From a virus (taxonomy: Duplodnaviria; Caudoviricetes): a stretch of 62,926 bases of DNA. The notes beneath the pieces were generated by a model. The model did not search any database. It was not told where the DNA came from and saw only the letters and a list, made by a program, of their open reading frames with translations. This document shows positions 33,326-62,825 of this stretch, one piece after another (positions within the stretch are counted from its first letter, which is position 1; every line of letters starts with the position of its first letter). The translations under genes were made by a program, and so were the position numbers. Location: positions 1 to 62,926 of the IMG/VR virus record IMGVR_UViG_3300025598_002100, one strand, 5' to 3'.

Positions 33326-33328
33326 ATA

Positions 33329-33532
33329 ATGCGCGATCCGAAACTAGGGTATCATTGGCTTTGGCTCTATCCATTAGCTGTTTTGTTACTTATAGTTTCG
33401 GTATTAGCATTTCCCTTTATTAAATTTATTGACTTTTATCAAAAGTATCAGCATAATAAACGTATGCAACGGATTTATAAAAAGAATCCAGATATTAAAG
33501 ATTTATCTATTTTAGCAGGTACAAAGAAGTAG
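33329..33532 (+). CDS. Small membrane protein
   Basis: One hydrophobic helix. Confidence 0.55.
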   Translation: MRDPKLGYHWLWLYPLAVLLLIVSVLAFPFIKFIDFYQKYQHNKRMQRIYKKNPDIKDLSILAGTKK

Positions 33533-33561
33533 TTGACAATTAGGTAAAAGTTAATTATAAT
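33533..33561 (+). promoter_or_regulatory. Perfect-consensus sigma70 promoter
   Basis: TTGACA, 17 bp, TATAAT. Confidence 0.88.
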
Positions 33562-33581
33562 ATCTGCATAGTTTGAAATTA

Positions 33582-33764
33582 AGGATAGGTACAGCAATTC
33601 ATAATCAATATGGAACGCTAATACATTGTATTAGATAGAGTGGTTTCGACAGTTCCTCTCGATAAACATAAAAAGTAGATAACTATCCTGTTTTTAAATT
33701 AGGTTAAGTTCCGCATTCAATCAATATCCAATGTCTACTAGGACGTAAAACTAGTTTTAACCTG
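33582..33764 (+). ncRNA. Two tandem related stem-closed RNA elements (candidate Y-RNA-like ligands)
   Basis: AGGATAG/CTATCCT (33582-33689) and AGGTTAA/TTAACCT (33701-33763), both with GT(A/T)C(A/C)GCA..TTCA..AATCAATAT after the 5' arm and ending CCTGT. Confidence 0.5.
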
Positions 33765-33778
33765 TAAGGAGAATAAAG

Positions 33779-35179
33779 ATGAATATGTTTGTAGACGCAG
33801 TTAAAGAAGTTCAAATCGAAACTCGTACTATTAACGGTATGAAAACTTTCGATTCCAGCAAGAGTCAGCTCGTTGACTTGTTCTTTGCAATCGGTGCAAG
33901 TCGTGGAAAAGACTTGAGCGCCGAATTCCACCGTGCTCTTGCTGAAGATGAAACGCTAGCACTTCGCTTGCTCATGTGGGCTCGCGACGTTCGCGGCGGT
34001 GCAGGCGAGCGTGATGTTGTTCGCACTATCTTGCTTAGTCTGGAAAAGAAAGATCCAGATGTGTTGAAGCGTGTGCTTCCTCACCTAGCTGAGTTTGGCC
34101 GCTGGGATGACTTGTTGATTTTTGAGCACAATCCGGAAATCAAGAGCATGGCTTTTGATCTTATCCATGCAGCACTTAAGGCTGGCAACGGTCTCTGTGC
34201 TAAGTGGATGCCTCGTAAGGGAGAGAAGTCTGCAGAGTTGCGTAATGCACTCGGTATGAGTCCTAAGACTTATCGCAAAACTCTAGTCAATTTGACTAAG
34301 GTTGTTGAGCAGAATATGTGTGCTAACGACTGGAATAACATTAACTATAACCACGTTCCTAGCGTGGCTGCTAGTCGTTACCAGAAAGCGTTTAAGAAGC
34401 ACGATCCGGAGGGCTATGAAGCGTATGCTTCTAAACTCGAAAAGGGCGAGGCTAAGATTAACGCTGGTGCAGTCTATCCGTATGACATCATCAAGGCACA
34501 CAATGCAGGTGGTGATGATAAGGTAGTTACTGCACAGTGGGAAGCATTGCCTAACTACATTGGTGACGAATTGATTCTTCCGATGGTAGATGTTTCGGGC
34601 TCTATGTGTGTACCAATCAGTAGCAACAAGAACCTGCAATGTATCGATGTTGCAGTTAGCTTAGGTTTGTATCTTGCAGATAAGAATACCGGTCCGTTTA
34701 AAGACATGTTCTTAACTTTCTCGACTGTTCCGGAGCTACAGGTTCTTAAGGGTAATCTCATTAAAAAAATTGCACAGCTTCAAAACGCTCAATGGGGGAT
34801 GAGCACCAATCTTAACAAAGCATTTGAGTTAATTCTCGATTACGCTGTTAAGGGCAAAGTTGCAACTAAGGACATGCCTAAGTATGTGCTCATCTTGTCA
34901 GATATGGAGTTTAATCGGTGCACAAAACACGACGACAGTGCTATGCAAATGATTGTACGTAAGTACGAAGCTGCTGGCTACGAGGTTCCGAATATTATTT
35001 TCTGGAATCTAGCAGCACGTAGCGGAAACGTTCCAGTGAAGTATGACAAGAAAGGTACTGCATTAATTTCCGGATTCAGCCCGGCAATTATGACTTCGGT
35101 ACTAGCAGCTAAGAGTATTACTCCGATAGATGTGATGCTTGAGACTCTAAACCGGCCACGTTACGCTATCATCGATTAA
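33779..35179 (+). CDS. Ro60/TROVE-like protein with C-terminal vWA domain (DUF2828-like)
   Basis: ARDVRGGAGER, FGRWDDL, CAKWMPR, INYNHVPS, MIDAS DVSGS, WGMSTN, LSDMEF, IFWN, SGFSP. Confidence 0.8.
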   Translation: MNMFVDAVKEVQIETRTINGMKTFDSSKSQLVDLFFAIGASRGKDLSAEFHRALAEDETLALRLLMWARDVRGGAGERDVVRTILLSLEKKDPDVLKRVLPHLAEFGRWDDLLIFEHNPEIKSMAFDLIHAALKAGNGLCAKWMPRKGEKSAELRNALGMSPKTYRKTLVNLTKVVEQNMCANDWNNINYNHVPSVAASRYQKAFKKHDPEGYEAYASKLEKGEAKINAGAVYPYDIIKAHNAGGDDKVVTAQWEALPNYIGDELILPMVDVSGSMCVPISSNKNLQCIDVAVSLGLYLADKNTGPFKDMFLTFSTVPELQVLKGNLIKKIAQLQNAQWGMSTNLNKAFELILDYAVKGKVATKDMPKYVLILSDMEFNRCTKHDDSAMQMIVRKYEAAGYEVPNIIFWNLAARSGNVPVKYDKKGTALISGFSPAIMTSVLAAKSITPIDVMLETLNRPRYAIID

Positions 35180-35236: not shown

Positions 35237-36220
35237 ATGAACATACTATTTCACACATATACTTTAAATTTTAGAGGCGGAGCTAGAGCGGTAGCAGATT
35301 ATGCCAAATATAATCAGGAAATTTTAGGAAATTCTAGCACAATTATCTATGAAAAGGGAGTATTCGATGGATACGTCGATATGCAAACTGAAAACTCTGC
35401 TTTAGATTATTTTAATAATGAATTTAATGTAATATCTTATAATGCATCTGAATCTAATTTAGTTAATGAAATTGCTAATAAGTATGACGTATTTTATAGT
35501 TTAAGAGCCGGGTGGGTGCAAGAACCTTTAGTGACTTCTACAAAAGCTGCAAACCATGTAGTTTTTCAAGTTTGTGATCCGTATGGGGATCGCTATGCAT
35601 ACATTTCCGACTGGCTTTCTTTAAAAATGTCTAATGGCAAATTGCCTTATGTCCCGCACATTGTTCAACTTCCTCAACCAAACCCATTAGCTCGCAATTC
35701 TCTCAGGAGTCGACTTGGCATAGCTGAAAATAAATTTATTTTTGGAAGATACGGTGCCTGGGGTTCGTTTGATGTTGCTGAAGTTCAACGTGCTATTATC
35801 GAAATAGTAACAGAATATAATGATATTGTTTTTGTTTTTGTGAATACTAATCCATTTTTCTATCACCCAAATATAATATATCTAAATCCGATAATGGATT
35901 TGCAATTAAAATCCGATTATATCGATATGTGCGATGCGATGATACATGCAAGATCAAACGGCGAATCTTTCGGATTAGCTATATGTGAATTTTTATTCCA
36001 TGATAAGCCTGTATTAGCATGGGAAGGAGGAGAGGATCAGCATCACGTCGATTTACTTAAAAATCATAATTTAATTTATAATTTATCAAACGTAAAAGAA
36101 ATGATGCTAAATCTTACTACTACTCAAAAATATCCAGATGTATATAGAAATATCATTAAGAGATTTGAACCAAAAACTGTAATGAAACAGTTTAAAGATG
36201 TGTTCTTAACTTTTAACTAA
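35237..36220 (+). CDS. GT-B (GT4-like) glycosyltransferase
   Basis: RGGARA N-terminus; HARSNGESFGLAICE. Confidence 0.75.
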   Translation: MNILFHTYTLNFRGGARAVADYAKYNQEILGNSSTIIYEKGVFDGYVDMQTENSALDYFNNEFNVISYNASESNLVNEIANKYDVFYSLRAGWVQEPLVTSTKAANHVVFQVCDPYGDRYAYISDWLSLKMSNGKLPYVPHIVQLPQPNPLARNSLRSRLGIAENKFIFGRYGAWGSFDVAEVQRAIIEIVTEYNDIVFVFVNTNPFFYHPNIIYLNPIMDLQLKSDYIDMCDAMIHARSNGESFGLAICEFLFHDKPVLAWEGGEDQHHVDLLKNHNLIYNLSNVKEMMLNLTTTQKYPDVYRNIIKRFEPKTVMKQFKDVFLTFN

Positions 36221-36632
36221 ACCAACCTAATTTTTCACCAGCAGCTTTTCTACGATCTGCTTCAGCGCGGCTACCTGGTAATCTACTTGCCCAAATTAGA
36301 ATTAAAGCAAAGAATATACTTAGTCCTAAACATAGCTTCCAGTTGCCGGTACGCCAATATATTAGAATTAAACTAAAGTCCATACTAGCAAACATTAGCC
36401 ATTTAGCAATAGTAGGGAATACTCGGCCTTCACTCCAGTTACGTATAACCGGTCCAAAAAGTTTATGGTTAAGCATATAGTTATGGAACTTTTCCGAACT
36501 TTTACTAAAGCACCATGCTGCTAAAATACTGGGAGTCGACCAAGGCAATCCTGGTATAAATGTTCCCAAATATGCAACTCCTAGAAATAAGATACCTAAA
36601 GTAAACCAAAGAGCTTTTTTAATTTTATTCAT
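36213..36632 (-). CDS. YbaN/DUF454-family inner-membrane protein
   Basis: LG..GTFIPGLP.STP.ILAAWCFSKSSEKFHNYMLNHKLFGPVIRNW. Confidence 0.85.
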   Translation of the reverse strand: MNKIKKALWFTLGILFLGVAYLGTFIPGLPWSTPSILAAWCFSKSSEKFHNYMLNHKLFGPVIRNWSEGRVFPTIAKWLMFASMDFSLILIYWRTGNWKLCLGLSIFFALILIWASRLPGSRAEADRRKAAGEKLGWFS

Positions 36633-36661
36633 ATTTTATTCTCGTTTGAAATATTTATTTG

Positions 36662-36691
36662 TTGACTTTACCCCACAAAATGTTTTATAGT
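36662..36691 (+). promoter_or_regulatory. sigma70-like promoter upstream of the structured ORF-free region
   Basis: TTGACT, 18 bp, TATAGT. Confidence 0.55.
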
Positions 36692-36697
36692 ATATCA

Positions 36698-37197
36698 ACT
36701 AAGGCACACTTACCGGCAAAAACATAGGCAAATCAATCAACGCTTAAGCTCGCACCGGCTAATTTCGGGTGCCTATGATAACCGGACAGCAAAGTCGCGG
36801 GGACAGAAATCCTGTGTGTTGACAGGAACTCAGCCACTACCCCTTCAGGGATGATGATGGAATATGCCTATATAATCCGTTTGGCTAGGTTAAAAATACT
36901 AGGGCTCTTTTGATCGCGGCTCTGTGAAAAAGATACAACCGCAAATGCTACATGTCTGCTAACATCGGTATGTAGTGTTCCCGTTAGATTGAAGTTAGGA
37001 ATAAGAAGTACAGGCTAACCGCTTCTGCGCAGAAATGCAATTTCCGAATGTTAGTGACTAACGAACTCAGGTAATATTCGTTAGAAATCTTCGCCCTGTT
37101 TTGGGCGAAGTATGACCTGTGAATCTAGGTAATCATTTCTCTTAAGAGAAAATGTGATGAGCGCGAGCGAAATCACAGGCGAATACTTTCGCCTTTC
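36698..37197 (+). ncRNA. Candidate large structured ncRNA (~500 nt), family not recognised
   Basis: No ORF of 60 aa or more; visibly more GC-rich than flanks; more than 10 helices and possible long-range loop pairings; bounded by promoters. Confidence 0.6.
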
Positions 37198-37203
37198 AAA
37201 TAA

Positions 37204-37232
37204 TTGACATTGTTGGTAATTCCAGATATAAT
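37204..37232 (+). promoter_or_regulatory. Perfect-consensus sigma70 promoter (leaderless transcript)
   Basis: TTGACA, 17 bp, TATAAT; ATG 6 nt downstream. Confidence 0.85.
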
Positions 37233-37238
37233 TACGTT

Positions 37239-38057
37239 ATGAAAATTAATATTGTAAGCGATCTACATTTGGATATCGGCGGGTACCAGGAATTACCTGG
37301 CGGAGAAGTATTAATTCTTAGTGGCGATATCGCCGAAGTTCGTAATATTCGTAAACATTATCATAGTACTAAACTATTATCTGATCTACCTAATCATGAA
37401 TACGCATGTTCAGAGTTCTTTCATTATGAATGTGCTAAGTACGATCGTGTATTCTACGTAATGGGTAATCACGAACATTACAGAAGTGTCTATCAAAACA
37501 CTCGTAAAGATCTCGAATATATGATGCCTACAAATCTTACTATTTTAGAAAATGATGTAGTCGATTATAATGGCATTATGTTTATGGGTGCTACATTATG
37601 GACAGACTTAAATCGTGGCGACCCTTTAACTCAATATCATATTAAGCAATGTATGAGTGATTATCGTCAAATCACCCAGAAAGGTGATGTGTATGATGCC
37701 TATCATAAACTTAAACCATCTTTTACTATAGCAGAACATCGCCGCAGTTTGGAATATTTTAAAATTGTACTCGAGCAAAATAAGGATCGTAAGTTTGTGA
37801 TTATAACTCACCATGCACCGAGCGAAATGAGTGTGCATGAATATTATAAACATGATACGTTAATGAATGGTGGATACATGAGTCGTTTAGAAGAGTTTAT
37901 CCTAGATCGCCCTAACATTTGTTTATGGACGCATGGGCATATGCATAACAAGGCTGATTATCTAATTGGAGATACTCGAGTGGTATGTAATCCTAGAGGG
38001 TACCTTCCGTATGAAGCAGATAATGAGTTTGATCCAGGATTTACAGTGGAGTTATAA
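37239..38057 (+). CDS. Calcineurin-like metallophosphoesterase
   Basis: VSDLH, SGDI, GNHEHY, ATLWTD, THHAP, HGHMH, NPRGY. Confidence 0.88.
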   Translation: MKINIVSDLHLDIGGYQELPGGEVLILSGDIAEVRNIRKHYHSTKLLSDLPNHEYACSEFFHYECAKYDRVFYVMGNHEHYRSVYQNTRKDLEYMMPTNLTILENDVVDYNGIMFMGATLWTDLNRGDPLTQYHIKQCMSDYRQITQKGDVYDAYHKLKPSFTIAEHRRSLEYFKIVLEQNKDRKFVIITHHAPSEMSVHEYYKHDTLMNGGYMSRLEEFILDRPNICLWTHGHMHNKADYLIGDTRVVCNPRGYLPYEADNEFDPGFTVEL

Positions 38058-38520: not shown

Positions 38521-39531
38521 ATGTCTTTATTGATCACAGGTGGTTGCGGTTTTATTGGTTCTAATTTTATACATAGATATTTGCAATTATTTCCAAATGA
38601 AAAAGTAATTAATGTAGATAAATTAACTTATGCAGGAAACATAGCAAATCTTAACGATATTAAAAATGAAAATTATCACTTTGTCTGTGCAGATATCAAT
38701 GATCGACAGATTATTACACAACTACTAATACGATATAGACCTAATCGTATTGTTCATATGGCTGCAGAAAGTCATGTAGATCGATCTATAGAAGATTCTA
38801 CCCCATTTATAAAAACCAATGTATTAGGAACTTTGGCTTTATTAGAATCTGTTAAAAATACTGTAGATTGGGATTATAAATTTATACATGTTTCTACAGA
38901 CGAAGTGTATGGCAGTTTATCGTTAACTGACCCTCCATTTACAGAAGTTACTCCTTATAATCCTAGATCTCCTTATTCTGCTAGTAAAGCATCATCAGAC
39001 CATTTAGTTAATGCTTACCATCATACGTATGGTATGAATACAATTATTACAAATTGTTCTAATAATTACGGTTCCTTTCAATATCCGGAAAAATTTATTC
39101 CTGTTATTATTACTAAAGCTCTTAGAAAAGAATCTATACCAGTTTATGGACAAGGGTTAAACATTAGAGATTGGTTGCATGTTTTAGACCATTGTGATGC
39201 TCTCATTAAAGTATTAGAGCACGGAGTACCTGGAGAAAAATATAATATCGGAGGTAACTGTCAAATAGATAATTTATCATTGGCTAAAATGATTTTAGAT
39301 CACATGGAATTAAATCACGATCTATTAACATTTGTTACAGATAGAAAAGGTCATGATTTTAGATACGATATAGATAACAGTAAAATATCTAAAGAATTAG
39401 ATTGGACCCCTGCTGTTGACTTAAATATAGGGCTAGCACAAACCATTAATTGGTATATAGATAATCTCGATTGGATCGAAGGAGTAGAACATCGTGCTAA
39501 AAACTTTAGGAATAATACTAGCAGCAGGTAA
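38521..39531 (+). CDS. rmlB: dTDP-glucose 4,6-dehydratase
   Basis: TGGCGFIG, DKLTYAG, AAESHVDRS, STDEVYG, YSASK, RKGHDFRY. Confidence 0.95.
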   Translation: MSLLITGGCGFIGSNFIHRYLQLFPNEKVINVDKLTYAGNIANLNDIKNENYHFVCADINDRQIITQLLIRYRPNRIVHMAAESHVDRSIEDSTPFIKTNVLGTLALLESVKNTVDWDYKFIHVSTDEVYGSLSLTDPPFTEVTPYNPRSPYSASKASSDHLVNAYHHTYGMNTIITNCSNNYGSFQYPEKFIPVIITKALRKESIPVYGQGLNIRDWLHVLDHCDALIKVLEHGVPGEKYNIGGNCQIDNLSLAKMILDHMELNHDLLTFVTDRKGHDFRYDIDNSKISKELDWTPAVDLNIGLAQTINWYIDNLDWIEGVEHRAKNFRNNTSSR

Positions 39532-40384
39532 ATCTACAAGGTTATATCCTGCTACTCTAGCCGTATCTAAACAAATTTTACCAGTATATGATAAGCCTTT
39601 AATTTACTATCCTCTCAGTGTATTAATGTTAGCTGGTATAAAACAGATATTGATAATTACCAATCCTCATGAAAAAAATATATTTGAAACTCTATTTAAA
39701 AACGCTAAAAAAGAATTAGGAATTGAAATTACTATAGCAACACAGGCTGCTCCTAATGGATTACCTGAAGCATTTTTAATTGCCGATCAGCATTATGATC
39801 TTAAAGAATTCGATAATATAAGTCTAATATTAGGGGATAATATATTCTATGGATCAGGATTTACCCAAATTTTAAAACAAGCATTATATACTCCTAATGC
39901 TGCACAGATTTTTTTACAACAAGTTAAAGATCCTAGTCGGTTCGGAGTTGTAGAATTTAATGCACAAGGAACGATAGAAGCTATAGTTGAAAAACCAGTC
40001 GAACCTAAATCTAATTATGCAATTACAGGATTATATTTTTTCCCGAATGATGTTGCTGATAAAAGTAAAAAATTAACGTTTAGTGAGAGAAAAGAATTAG
40101 AGATGGTAGATTTAATTAGAATGTATCATTTAGAAGAAAGGTTAGACGTACAGCGTTTGTTACGAGGAATATCTTGGTTTGATACTGGCACATCAACTTC
40201 GTTATTAGAAGCTGCATTATTTGTTAAAACTATACAAGATTATCAAGGATTTCTTGTAGGGTCTCCTCATGAAGTGGCGTATACTAATAAATGGATTAAA
40301 GATTCTGCTATAGAACAATTTACAGATTCTTGGAAGAATAAAAATGATTATGGAACTTATCTAACGGAGATGATTAAAAAATGA
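39494..40384 (+). CDS. rmlA: Glucose-1-phosphate thymidylyltransferase
   Basis: GIILAAGKSTRLYP, SKQILPVYDKP, LGDNIFYG, VEKP, WFDTGT. Confidence 0.93.
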   Translation: MLKTLGIILAAGKSTRLYPATLAVSKQILPVYDKPLIYYPLSVLMLAGIKQILIITNPHEKNIFETLFKNAKKELGIEITIATQAAPNGLPEAFLIADQHYDLKEFDNISLILGDNIFYGSGFTQILKQALYTPNAAQIFLQQVKDPSRFGVVEFNAQGTIEAIVEKPVEPKSNYAITGLYFFPNDVADKSKKLTFSERKELEMVDLIRMYHLEERLDVQRLLRGISWFDTGTSTSLLEAALFVKTIQDYQGFLVGSPHEVAYTNKWIKDSAIEQFTDSWKNKNDYGTYLTEMIKK

Positions 40385-41154
40385 AAATACTTGTAGTAGG
40401 TAGAGGTTGGACAGGGAATAAAATGTTTATTGAATTAACTCAGCGAGGCCATGTTTGTAAACTGGTTTCTCATGATGATGTTAATAATTTGATCACTAAC
40501 GATTATGATTGGGTAGTTAATGCTGCAGGAGTAACCGGAACTCCGAATGTAGATGGATGCGAGTTAATTAAACCCGAAACTTACAAAGGAAATGCTTTAT
40601 TTCCTATCGAACTATATAATCTATGTCAACAACATAATGTAAAACTTGCCCATTTTTCTAGTGGTTGCATATACGAAGGTGTAATTACAGATGTAAATGC
40701 AGATCCTAATTATTTCGGAAGCACTTATTCAGTTAGCAAAGGCATTTCTGATATGTTCTTAAAAGACAAAGCGTTGGTTTTTAGAATTAGAATGCCGTTT
40801 ACTGGAGTTAATGAAGCTAAAAACTATCTAACTAAAGTTTACAAATATAGCAATAATGGTAAACTAGTAGATCTAGGTAAGAACAGTATGACTGACTTAG
40901 ATGAAGCAGTTTCGGTAGCATGCAATCTTATTGAACAAAACGAAACAGGGCCTCACAACTTGATTAACCAAGGTGCTATCACGATGCCTGAATTAGTAGA
41001 AATTATGGGTATTGAAAATCCCCAATATTATACTAGAGAAGAATTTGCAGCCGTAACACGTTCAGGAAGATCAACCTGCGTTATTCCTGAATTCGGACTA
41101 ATGCGTTCATTGCATGATGCACTAGTTGATGCCGTGGCTAAGATGAAAGTTTAA
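40381..41154 (+). CDS. NDP-4-keto-6-deoxyglucose reductase, probably bifunctional 3,5-epimerase/4-reductase type
   Basis: GRGWTG, NAAGVTGTPNVDGCE, SSGCIY, YSVSK, RIRMP. Confidence 0.75.
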   Translation: MKILVVGRGWTGNKMFIELTQRGHVCKLVSHDDVNNLITNDYDWVVNAAGVTGTPNVDGCELIKPETYKGNALFPIELYNLCQQHNVKLAHFSSGCIYEGVITDVNADPNYFGSTYSVSKGISDMFLKDKALVFRIRMPFTGVNEAKNYLTKVYKYSNNGKLVDLGKNSMTDLDEAVSVACNLIEQNETGPHNLINQGAITMPELVEIMGIENPQYYTREEFAAVTRSGRSTCVIPEFGLMRSLHDALVDAVAKMKV

Positions 41155-62740: not shown

Positions 62741-62825
62741 GGGTAAGCGCCGGAGTGAGAGAGCCGGATTTGACTGTAAATCAAACGTTCCGACTGAGTA
62801 GGTGCGAATCCTACCTTACCCACCA
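62741..62825 (+). tRNA. tRNA-Tyr(GTA), with non-canonical D/T loops
   Basis: Acceptor GGGTAAG/CTTACCC plus ACCA; D stem CCGG/CCGG; anticodon arm TTTGA-CTGTAAA-TCAAA; T arm GTAGG-TGCGAAT-CCTAC. Confidence 0.88.

What the first reader, a model, noticed from the sequence alone, without database searches (positions are those of the whole stretch)
36662..37200. ~500-nt ORF-free, densely structured region: candidate novel large ncRNA
Seen: in a genome with almost no spacing, a 600-bp gap with its own promoter and higher GC. Helices include GCACC/GGTGC (36752-36772), TCCTGT/ACAGGA (36810-36827), AGCCA/TGGCT (36832-36886), GCGG/CCGC (36916-36942), GCTACAT/ATGTAGT (36947-36976), AGAAGT/GCTTCT (37004-37026), CTAACGAA/TTCGTTAG (37058-37084), CTTCGCCC/GGGCGAAG (37089-37110), TGTGAT/ATCACA and AGGCGAA/TTCGCCT (37153-37194). 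Possible pseudoknots: loop GCTAACAT (36958) with ATGTTAGT (37048), and ATAGGCA (36724) with either TGCCTAT copy (36770 or 36865). A repeated motif occurs as GAACTCAGGTAAT and GAATCTAGGTAAT. I see no RNase P, tmRNA or group I/II hallmarks. Inference: a large structured RNA of the size class of ROOL/GOLLD/OLE, or alternatively a structured replication origin.
Basis: partly seen in the sequence, partly recalled or inferred. Interest (0 to 1): 0.82.

Follow-up and report, generated by a model that had tools for sequence, protein, structure and literature searches.

The report
Large knotted RNA gene of a jumbo phage
The gene-free gap holds a real, intricately folded non-coding RNA of about 500 bases from an uncultured giant lake phage; its first third is a catalogued but unexplained RNA motif, the rest is an uncatalogued knotted extension with two short boxes that always match each other, and its job is still unknown.

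Summary
36633-37238 is the largest ORF-free gap of the window (606 nt, GC 43.9% against 34.8%), behind a conserved sigma70-like promoter.

Rfam places 36747-36891 (+) in Polynucleobacter-1 (RF01718; 91.5 bits, cut-off 37), so the 5' third is not new. The 3' ~300 nt match no Rfam family but always accompany that motif. A scan of viral contigs for a 3'-domain pattern returned at least 119 loci, and 48 of 50 of their records also hold RF01718 about 100 nt upstream.

On 94 RNAs, 89 base pairs in 23 helices are 92.6% paired, against 35-44% in slid controls, and 74 pairs change on both sides.

The two copies are identical within each RNA in 108 of 108 loci, come in 8 types, and changed at least 35 times. 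I found no complementary partner.

The copy here is a diverged paralogue with its own promoter and a unique box (AGGTAAT). Function is unknown. I favour a trans-acting structured RNA whose boxes read a shared partner. The origin, leader and Y-RNA readings are not supported.

This scan has already noted the family on other DNA (103 notes).

The parts
36662..36691 (+). Sigma70-like promoter of the RNA gene (TTGACT, 18 nt, TATAGT); start of transcription inferred near 36698
   Evidence: 10 of 12 positions. In relatives L002 and L005 both hexamers are kept (TATAGT or TATATT) while the spacer varies. No transcript data exist.
36698..37200 (+). Inferred RNA gene, about 500 nt; both ends are inferred, not mapped
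   Evidence: Conservation across 91 homologues runs from about 36695 to about 37200 and falls off beyond. Promoter upstream. A covarying 3' hairpin lies at the end.
36737..36738 (+). Leader bases that pair with the loop of the third hairpin (36819-36820): a small pseudoknot outside the Rfam model
   Evidence: helix 1: 2 pairs, both with changes on both sides, 85% paired.
36747..36891 (+). 5' domain = Polynucleobacter-1 RNA motif (Rfam RF01718). Helices: 36752-56/36768-72, 36779-87/36794-801, 36811-14/36823-26, 36831-36/36882-87, 36841-43/36848-50, 36856-61/36872-81; plus a small crossing helix 36747-50/36757-60
   Evidence: 91.5 bits, cut-off 37, model positions 1-141 of 141; helices 2-13.
36916..36942 (+). 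Hairpin GCGG/CCGC of the window's clade; the family has a GGG/CCC-type hairpin at the same place
   Evidence: GTGG/CCAC in L005; helix 14, 81% paired, 3 pairs with changes on both sides.
36947..36976 (+). Long hairpin (36947-57 with 36966-76) whose loop forms the long-range pseudoknot
   Evidence: helix 15: 11 pairs, all with changes on both sides, 94% paired, up to 6 pair types per position.
36959..36965 (+). Loop strand of the long-range pseudoknot; pairs with 37048-37053
   Evidence: helix 16: 7 pairs, all with changes on both sides, 96% paired. The window has CUAACAU/AUGUUAG where most relatives have UUAGCGU/ACGCUAA.
36983..37046 (+). H-type pseudoknot core: 36983-87 pairs with 37015-19 inside the loop of hairpin 37005-09/37021-25, and is crossed by 36998-37002/37042-46. 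Holds the near-invariant GUACMGG..ACCGC
   Evidence: helices 17-19: 98.5%, 93.6% and 100% paired; 3, 5 and 3 pairs with changes on both sides.
37048..37053 (+). 3' strand of the long-range pseudoknot
   Evidence: helix 16.
37054..37075 (+). Twin unit A: GTGAC, spacer, CTC, then box 1 = AGGTAAT (37069-37075). In this clade it sits in the loop of the local hairpin 37058-65/37077-84
37089..37110 (+). Conserved hairpin CTTCGCCC/GGGCGAAG between the two units
   Evidence: compensatory variants among 7 copies. helix 20: the 4 outer pairs were counted, 90% paired, 2 with changes on both sides.
37112..37133 (+). Twin unit B: (G)TATGAC, spacer, TCT, then box 2 = AGGTAAT (37127-37133). ATCTAGGT (37123-37130) is self-complementary if G-U pairs are allowed
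   Evidence: The self-complementarity is read from the sequence.
37153..37177 (+). Hairpin TGTGAT/ATCACA
   Evidence: GTGAT/ATCAC, GCTAC/GTAGC and GCTGT/ACAGC in different copies. helix 21: 2 pairs counted, both with changes on both sides, 83% paired.
37177..37196 (+). 3'-terminal hairpin AGGCGAA-TACT-TTCGCCT followed by TT; inferred 3' end or weak terminator
   Evidence: Sequence. The equivalent family hairpin has 8 pairs, all with changes on both sides, 94-96% paired (helices 22-23). The terminator scan did not call it, because the T run is too short.
37204..37232 (+). Separate consensus promoter (TTGACA, 17 nt, TATAAT) of the next gene (metallophosphoesterase, 37239-38057); not part of the RNA but bounds it
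   Evidence: 12 of 12 positions. Kept in L002, L005 and L007. Gene identity.

Best explanation
The gap encodes a stand-alone, non-coding, highly structured RNA of about 500 nt on the + strand. It runs from a sigma70-like promoter (36662-36691) to a 3' hairpin (37177-37194).

It is a diverged second copy (paralogue) of a family that is widespread in uncultured freshwater T4-like jumbo phages. The 5' domain (36747-36891) is the catalogued Polynucleobacter-1 motif. The 3' domain (about 36892-37196) is uncatalogued. It holds an H-type pseudoknot core, a 7-bp long-range pseudoknot, and two tandem units that each present the same heptamer (here AGGUAAU).

Shown: the family membership, the two-domain linkage, the fold, and the strict within-molecule identity of the two boxes.

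Inferred mechanism (about 35% of my odds): the RNA acts in trans as a folded scaffold or ribonucleoprotein. It displays the two heptamers, box 1 usually in a hairpin loop, so that both read the same kind of partner. Most simply this would be two copies or two sites of a nucleic acid complementary to the box and encoded elsewhere, in the phage or the host. This would make the box a specificity determinant that differs between RNA copies.

Less likely sub-variants: the boxes touch each other directly through like-with-like contacts, or they mediate self-association of the RNA through the self-complementary AUCURGAU of unit B.
For: Identity and extent
- RF01718 scores 91.5 bits against a cut-off of 37.
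- The window's 3' part finds homologous sequence behind the RF01718 match in L085 (and its duplicate L007), L090 and L091, but not in L086; L086 was aligned by eye.
- A pattern drawn only from the 3' domain found at least 119 viral loci. 48 of 50 of their records hold RF01718. The other two matches lie within 200 nt of the start of their loci, so the 5' domain is probably cut off.

Fold
- 89 pairs are 92.6% paired against 35-44% when slid.
- 74 pairs and 1382 cells change on both sides, against 148-245 cells when slid.
- 0 of 500 shuffles reach the observed values.

Stand-alone gene
- It has its own conserved promoter, and the next gene has a separate consensus promoter.
- The neighbours differ between copies.

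Paralogy
- Each of the two near-complete relatives, G001 and G006, has exactly two copies by Rfam and by nhmmer.
- The two copies in one genome carry different boxes.

Twin boxes
- They are identical in 94 of 94 aligned RNAs and 108 of 108 full-length loci, with 8 types.
- Mutual information between equivalent box positions is 0.98, 0.95 and 0.85. The next-best column for position 1 reaches only 0.27.
- On a tree built without the box columns there are at least 35 changes of box type.
- No complement of an RNA's own box lies inside that RNA, which points to a partner in trans or to a like-with-like contact.
Against: - No transcript evidence: no RNA run is listed for this DNA, so the ends and even transcription are inferred.
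- No partner for the boxes was found:
  - none in the 1.2-kb flanks of 119 loci;
  - none in the tRNAs of two whole genomes;
  - none as inverted or direct repeats genome-wide;
  - none at homologous sites of G001 and G006.
- The structure given to one search was derived from the same alignment, so the counts lean towards it. The slid controls share that bias only in part.
- The pattern fixes part of box 1 (ACTCRGRTRA), so box 1 could vary only within that frame. Box 2 was not constrained by the search.
- Box variation is mostly A/G, so a protein reader with limited tolerance cannot be strictly excluded.
- The minimum of 35 changes depends on a FastTree tree of a short alignment. Pairs of RNAs at 90% identity or more never differ in box type (0 of 26).
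Confidence: 0.8

Rival explanations
1. Replication-origin element: the transcript is a structured primer precursor that forms a persistent RNA-DNA hybrid at its own locus. This would be like ColE1 RNA II or the T4 R-loop origins (both recalled, not tested here). The boxes would be DNA-level repeats.
For: - There are several copies per genome on the same strand: two each in G001 and G006, about 140 kb apart.
- The common copy sits behind recombination and replication genes, SbcD/SbcC-like gp47/gp46.
- Earlier notes of this scan (e1-5618612, e1-5824172) proposed this reading; they are unchecked leads.
Against: - The cumulative GC skew does not turn at 36.6-37.2 kb.
- No AT-rich unwinding stretch is evident from the sequence. 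The gap is the GC-richest 1-2% of the window.
- A covarying 3' hairpin argues for a discrete folded RNA end.
- Box-based inverted repeats are not enriched: 3-9 against 9-11 in the control.
- Two copies in one genome carry different boxes, which DNA-binding initiator sites would not easily explain.
- This copy lies among auxiliary metabolic genes.
Confidence: 0.08
2. Cis-regulatory leader or riboswitch of the downstream gene, as the 2010 catalogue tentatively classed the Polynucleobacter-1 motif.
For: Weinberg et al. 2010 (PMC2864571; I saw only the table row, via the find mode) list the motif as 'cis-reg: y, switch: ?'. The RNA lies 5' of a + strand gene here.
Against: - A perfect, conserved promoter (37204-37232) lies between the RNA's 3' hairpin and the gene.
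- In the family the next genes are mostly on the opposite strand. The baseplate-hub-like gene is convergent in 71 of 119 loci, and the other downstream genes differ.
- The metallophosphoesterase gene occurs without the RNA in most records: RF01718 is in 5 of 50.
Confidence: 0.04
3. Y-RNA-like partner of the Ro60/TROVE-like protein (DUF2828 + DUF7788, 33779-35179) encoded 1.5 kb upstream.
For: In 4 of 9 loci with a relative of that protein, RF01718 lies 0.5-4 kb downstream of it on the same strand; in L007 it is the next feature. The protein matches phrog_850, 'RNA-binding protein'.
Against: - 5 of those 9 loci have no RF01718. Two whole records that hold the protein (G002, G005) have none.
- Only 1 of the 119 pattern-found RNA loci holds a relative of that protein, and it is L133, from the window's own clade.
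- The second copies in G001 and G006 lie elsewhere.
- The protein has its own candidate RNAs directly upstream, 33326-33778.
Confidence: 0.04
4. Template RNA for a reverse transcriptase that jumps between the two identical boxes and makes concatenated cDNA, as reported for DRT2 defence systems (recalled, not read here).
For: There are two identical direct repeats bounding a 47-62-nt segment, held together by a scaffold. Identity of donor and acceptor sites is what template jumping needs.
Against: - The repeat spacing varies from 47 to 62 nt with no preference for multiples of three.
- Only 29 of 94 concatenated units stay open in any frame.
- No reverse-transcriptase family appeared among the ten commonest neighbour-gene clusters scanned. 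A whole-genome search for a reverse transcriptase was not done.
Confidence: 0.03

Closest known systems
Polynucleobacter-1 RNA motif (Rfam RF01718; Weinberg et al. 2010, Genome Biol 11:R31, PMC2864571)
   Same: 36747-36891 matches the full 141-position model at 91.5 bits against a cut-off of 37. The helices are the same, the habitat is fresh water, and the function is unknown.
   Different: The catalogued motif is only the 5' third. Here and in at least 119 phage loci it is fused to a conserved ~300-nt pseudoknotted 3' domain with twin boxes, plus two small pseudoknots that reach outside the model. The catalogue lists Burkholderiales and tentative cis-regulation. Here it is a stand-alone gene of a jumbo phage.
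Large structured RNAs of unknown or newly found function: ROOL, GOLLD, OLE (recalled as a size and complexity class)
   Same: Several hundred nucleotides, many helices and pseudoknots, found in phages or mobile DNA, with no obvious protein partner. A self-complementary segment (AUCURGAU) could allow self-association.
   Different: No match to their Rfam models. It is smaller than GOLLD, and none of them is known to me to carry identity-coupled twin boxes. Multimer formation was not tested.
ColE1 RNA II primer precursor and the T4 R-loop origins (recalled)
   Same: A structured transcript of about 500 nt with its own promoter. The common family copy lies near replication and recombination genes.
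   Different: No origin signature in skew or composition, a discrete covarying 3' hairpin, several diverged copies with different boxes, and no antisense regulator seen.
Bacterial and phage Y RNAs with Ro60 (Rsr) (recalled)
   Same: A Ro60-like gene lies 1.5 kb upstream in this clade.
   Different: The linkage is not general. No tRNA-like module was found by ARAGORN or Rfam. The RNA is much larger.

Membership tests
Polynucleobacter-1 RNA (Rfam RF01718) | Covariance-model score at or above the curated gathering score (37 bits) | tested here: met
   91.5 bits, E = 2.8e-18 for the whole window; again.
Polynucleobacter-1 RNA (Rfam RF01718) | Full-length match with the model's helices formed | tested here: met
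   Model positions 1-141 of 141, three non-standard pairs marked in the alignment. The same helices covary on 94 homologues (helices 4-13).
Polynucleobacter-1 RNA (Rfam RF01718) | Distribution as catalogued: Burkholderiales, fresh water or estuary | tested here: inconclusive
   All 20 DNA runs that hold the stretch are labelled freshwater metagenome, in 18 studies; 7 may be the source. The carrier is a virus record and its host is unknown.
Polynucleobacter-1 RNA (Rfam RF01718) | Tentative cis-regulatory position in a 5' UTR (Weinberg 2010 table) | tested here: not met
   A separate promoter stands before the next gene. Downstream genes are convergent or unrelated in the family. This was a tentative label, not a defining feature of the Rfam model.
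RNase P RNA, tmRNA, group I/II introns, ROOL, GOLLD, OLE and every other Rfam family | Match to the family's covariance model | tested here: not met
   No match up to E = 10 in 36500-37400 except noise (mir-308, 15 bits against 60). The same holds for a typical family member (cow-rumen-2, 18 bits against 66). ARAGORN finds no tRNA or tmRNA in the window.
Y RNA / Ro60 ribonucleoprotein | Consistent genomic linkage to a Ro60/TROVE gene | tested here: not met
   4 of 9 loci; 1 of 119 RNA loci, from the window's own clade.
Replication-origin primer RNA (ColE1 RNA II type) | Origin activity at the locus: skew turn, unwinding element, RNA-DNA hybrid, RNase H processing | tested here: inconclusive
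   No skew turn and high GC speak against it. Skew is a weak test in phages whose genes run mostly one way. Hybrid formation is not testable with these tools.
DRT2-type template RNA | Repeat unit that yields an open reading frame when concatenated; adjacent reverse transcriptase | tested here: not met
   Spacing is 47-62 nt and not in threes; 29 of 94 concatemers are open. No reverse transcriptase among the ten commonest neighbour clusters.

The most novel reading that the evidence does not exclude
The twin heptamers are a programmable address. A conserved pseudoknotted scaffold presents two identical guide-like segments that base-pair with a duplicated or dimeric nucleic-acid target in the phage or host. 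Each paralogue in a genome would be aimed at a different target. That would make this a new class of phage-encoded guide or ribozyme RNA with a two-site, identity-coupled recognition mode. An even stranger variant is a like-with-like, parallel box-to-box contact.
Probability: 0.15. Interest if true: 0.88.

Novelty: new variant of a known kind. Interest (0 to 1): 0.66.

Why it matters
Large, intricately folded RNAs without a known function are rare, and several have turned out to be ribozymes, riboswitches or self-assembling particles.

This analysis shows that a motif catalogued in 2010 as a 141-nt, possibly cis-regulatory element is one domain of a ~450-500-nt pseudoknotted RNA. Very many uncultured giant lake phages keep it, sometimes in two diverged copies.

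The two heptamers have changed in step, by the parsimony count at least 35 times, and were never found different. That is a kind of covariation (identity, not complementarity) that standard RNA tools do not look for. It points to a specific, testable recognition event.

Finding the partner could reveal a new way in which phages address a target. The family is also a well-covarying candidate for structure determination.

Tried and rejected
1. Protein-coding reading: rejected. No ORF above 34 aa lies in the gap, and the substitutions are compensatory in helices.

2. Similar DNA in deposited phage genomes: none, either for the window's copy or for a typical family member (blastn).

3. Expression: no RNA holder is listed for this stretch. 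This is no evidence either way.

A search of the genus Polynucleobacter could not be set up. The claim in earlier notes that Polynucleobacter islands carry the RNA was therefore not checked.

5. Box partner searches, all negative:
- columns inside the RNA;
- exact complements of 5-7 nt inside the RNA against controls;
- an RNA's own box or its complement in the flanks of 119 loci;
- inverted repeats of box type in three near-complete genomes against a reversed-pattern control;
- tRNAs of G001 and G006;
- close pairs of boxes or complements genome-wide;
- homologous sites that switch with the box between G001 and G006;
- 10-mers including the CTC or TCT context. The two apparently non-coding hits in G006 lie inside a run of small ORFs and have no Rfam match.

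6. AGGTAAT occurs 26 times in the window against 13.2 +/- 3.6 in shuffles, without strand bias. I do not read this as targets.

7. Never-ending-ORF idea: rejected.

8. The leader is poorly aligned, so a clade-specific pairing is not excluded.

9. RNAalifold on the raw MAFFT alignment recovered only part of the structure and no pseudoknots, so I used mutual information instead.

10. Papers: searches for 'Polynucleobacter-1', 'RF01718' and jumbo phage / noncoding RNA / pseudoknot / covariation found no description beyond Weinberg 2010. From the search listing alone, the other two RF01718 papers look like genome annotation lists. Supplementary files of Weinberg 2010, which I could not see, may hold the motif drawing and its gene associations.

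Full report
What is there. The window is an IMG/VR virus record of 62,926 bases that CheckV rates 17% complete. Its relatives are contigs of 326-354 kb, so it is a piece of a jumbo phage. Genes are tightly packed and mostly on the + strand. The stretch 36633-37238, between a DUF454 gene (36213-36632, -) and a metallophosphoesterase gene (37239-38057, +), is the largest ORF-free gap at 606 nt. It is GC-rich for this genome: 0.439 against 0.348, the 98.8th percentile. A TTGACT-18-TATAGT promoter lies at 36662-36691, and a perfect TTGACA-17-TATAAT at 37204-37232 stands before the next gene. In close relatives both hexamers of the first promoter are kept while the spacer drifts, and the second promoter is kept even in the distant L007. 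Folding one sequence gives only z = -2.5 (+) and -3.0 (-), so the case for an RNA rests on comparison with relatives.

Known part. Rfam release 15 places 36747-36891 (+) in Polynucleobacter-1 (RF01718) at 91.5 bits against a cut-off of 37, over the whole model. Nothing else in 36500-37400 reaches even E = 1, and ARAGORN finds nothing in the window. The only description in the paper library is one table row in Weinberg et al. 2010 (PMC2864571; passage seen; searches). It reads: probably an RNA, probably cis-regulatory, Burkholderiales and fresh water.

The motif is one domain of a larger RNA. Relatives found through the neighbouring Ro60-like protein carry RF01718 in 4 of 9 loci. The ~300 nt behind it align with the window over their whole length. 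Among 50 related records, 5 hold the motif. The two near-complete genomes, G001 and G006, hold two copies each, and nhmmer on their full sequence finds exactly those two. The window's 3' part finds both second copies. An alignment of seven copies shows invariant blocks and compensatory stems through to the 3' hairpin. RF01718 is present in 48 of 50 of their records, about 100 nt upstream. The two misses have their match within 200 nt of the locus start, so the 5' domain is probably cut off. Of the 119 loci, 108 are full length and 90 are below 92% identity to each other. Neither deposited phage genomes nor, with this pattern, bacterial genomes hold it; the bacterial scan gave 4 MAG contigs.

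Fold. From an alignment of 94 RNAs I took the pairs with the highest corrected mutual information, extended them and counted them. There are 89 pairs in 23 helices. They are 92.6% paired, against 35-44% when the partner is slid by 1-3 columns. 74 pairs change on both sides. 1382 such cells compare with 148-245 in the slid controls, and 0 of 500 shuffles reach the observed values. The structure was derived from this same alignment, which flatters it, but the margin is large. Apart from one invariant pair (in helix 17), the core helices 15-19 are made of pairs with several pair types. The 3' domain has four main elements:
- a long hairpin (36947-57/36966-76);
- an H-type pseudoknot in which 36983-87 pairs into the loop of hairpin 37005-09/37021-25 and is crossed by 36998-37002/37042-46;
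- a covarying 3' hairpin.
Two further small pseudoknots involve the leader and the first hairpin of the Rfam motif. The hairpin round box 1 is clade-specific in the alignment, although a local stem there is commoner than chance.

Twin boxes. The two heptamers are identical within each RNA in 94 of 94 aligned RNAs and in 108 of 108 full-length loci. There are eight types; the window's AGGUAAU occurs once among the 94. Equivalent positions share mutual information of 0.98, 0.95 and 0.85, while no other column exceeds 0.27 for position 1. On a tree built without the unit columns the box type changes at least 35 times, and position 1 at least 26 times. RNAs at 90% identity or more never differ (0 of 26 pairs), and those at 80-86% differ in 16 of 45. 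The flanking CUC and UCU stay different throughout. The search pattern fixed the frame of box 1 but not of box 2. AUCURGAU of unit B is self-complementary in every type if G-U pairs are allowed; this is read. Every search for a complementary partner failed.

Context and rivals. The common copy follows SbcD/SbcC-like genes and a small SegE-like GIY-YIG nuclease gene, and faces a convergent baseplate-hub-like gene. The window's copy has none of these neighbours and has its own promoter, so the RNA depends neither on the nuclease nor on a downstream gene. A homing-type nuclease beside it fits a conserved, valuable target gene; that is inference. The Ro60-like gene is linked only in this clade and has its own candidate RNAs upstream. 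The cumulative GC skew does not turn here. The box spacing of 47-62 nt shows no threes rule.

Verdict. This is a real structured RNA gene. It is a member of RF01718 by score, but the family is far larger and more intricate than catalogued, and this is a diverged paralogue with a unique box. This scan has already noted the family on other DNA (103 notes in at least 94 genomes). Those notes agree on the extended RNA and the twin boxes, and I re-derived both here independently. Function remains open. My best guess, at about one in three, is a trans-acting scaffold whose two boxes read one kind of partner.

Noticed in passing
window 33326-33778 (+), upstream of 33779-35179: This is the second-largest ORF-free gap (453 nt). 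Behind a conserved TTGACA..TATAAT promoter lie two stem-closed elements (AGGATAG..CTATCCT and AGGTTAA..TTAACCT). They sit directly before a Ro60/TROVE-like gene (DUF2828 + DUF7788, phrog_850). The second stem is kept even in relatives at 56-69% protein identity and ends at the ribosome-binding site. In L009 and L010 tRNA genes flank the gene. They are candidate Y-RNA-like or leader RNAs, and a first-reader note (e1-6296403) already covers them.
   Followed up: partly
window 62741-62822 (+): Rfam calls a tRNA here (42.1 bits, cut-off 29, 82 nt), but ARAGORN reports no tRNA in the whole window. It is perhaps an atypical or intron-bearing tRNA.
   Followed up: no
G006 (L233-L250), 65875-66376, and the tRNA clusters: The 353-kb relative carries 49 tRNA genes and a permuted tmRNA by ARAGORN (tag ANDSVYALAA). 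The 328-kb relative G001 carries 27 tRNAs.
   Followed up: no
window, whole: The heptamer AGGTAAT (the window's box) occurs 26 times on both strands against 13.2 +/- 3.6 in dinucleotide shuffles, with no strand bias. This is unexplained and may be a codon-usage effect.
   Followed up: partly
L093-L211, upstream of the RNA: In 60 of 119 family loci a 142-aa SegE-like GIY-YIG nuclease gene ends right at the start of the RNA. The conserved 'leader' in those loci looks, by eye, like the 3' end of that coding sequence, so the common copy may be co-transcribed with the nuclease gene.
   Followed up: partly
L192:1507-2029: One family member has a normal 3' domain and twin boxes, but its 5' part aligns poorly with the Polynucleobacter-1 domain. 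The 5' domain may be diverged or replaced.
   Followed up: no
window 38521-41154 and 41770-62298: Downstream of the RNA lie nucleotide-sugar genes (dehydratase/epimerase, nucleotidyl transferase). First-reader notes record further auxiliary genes, which I did not check.
   Followed up: no
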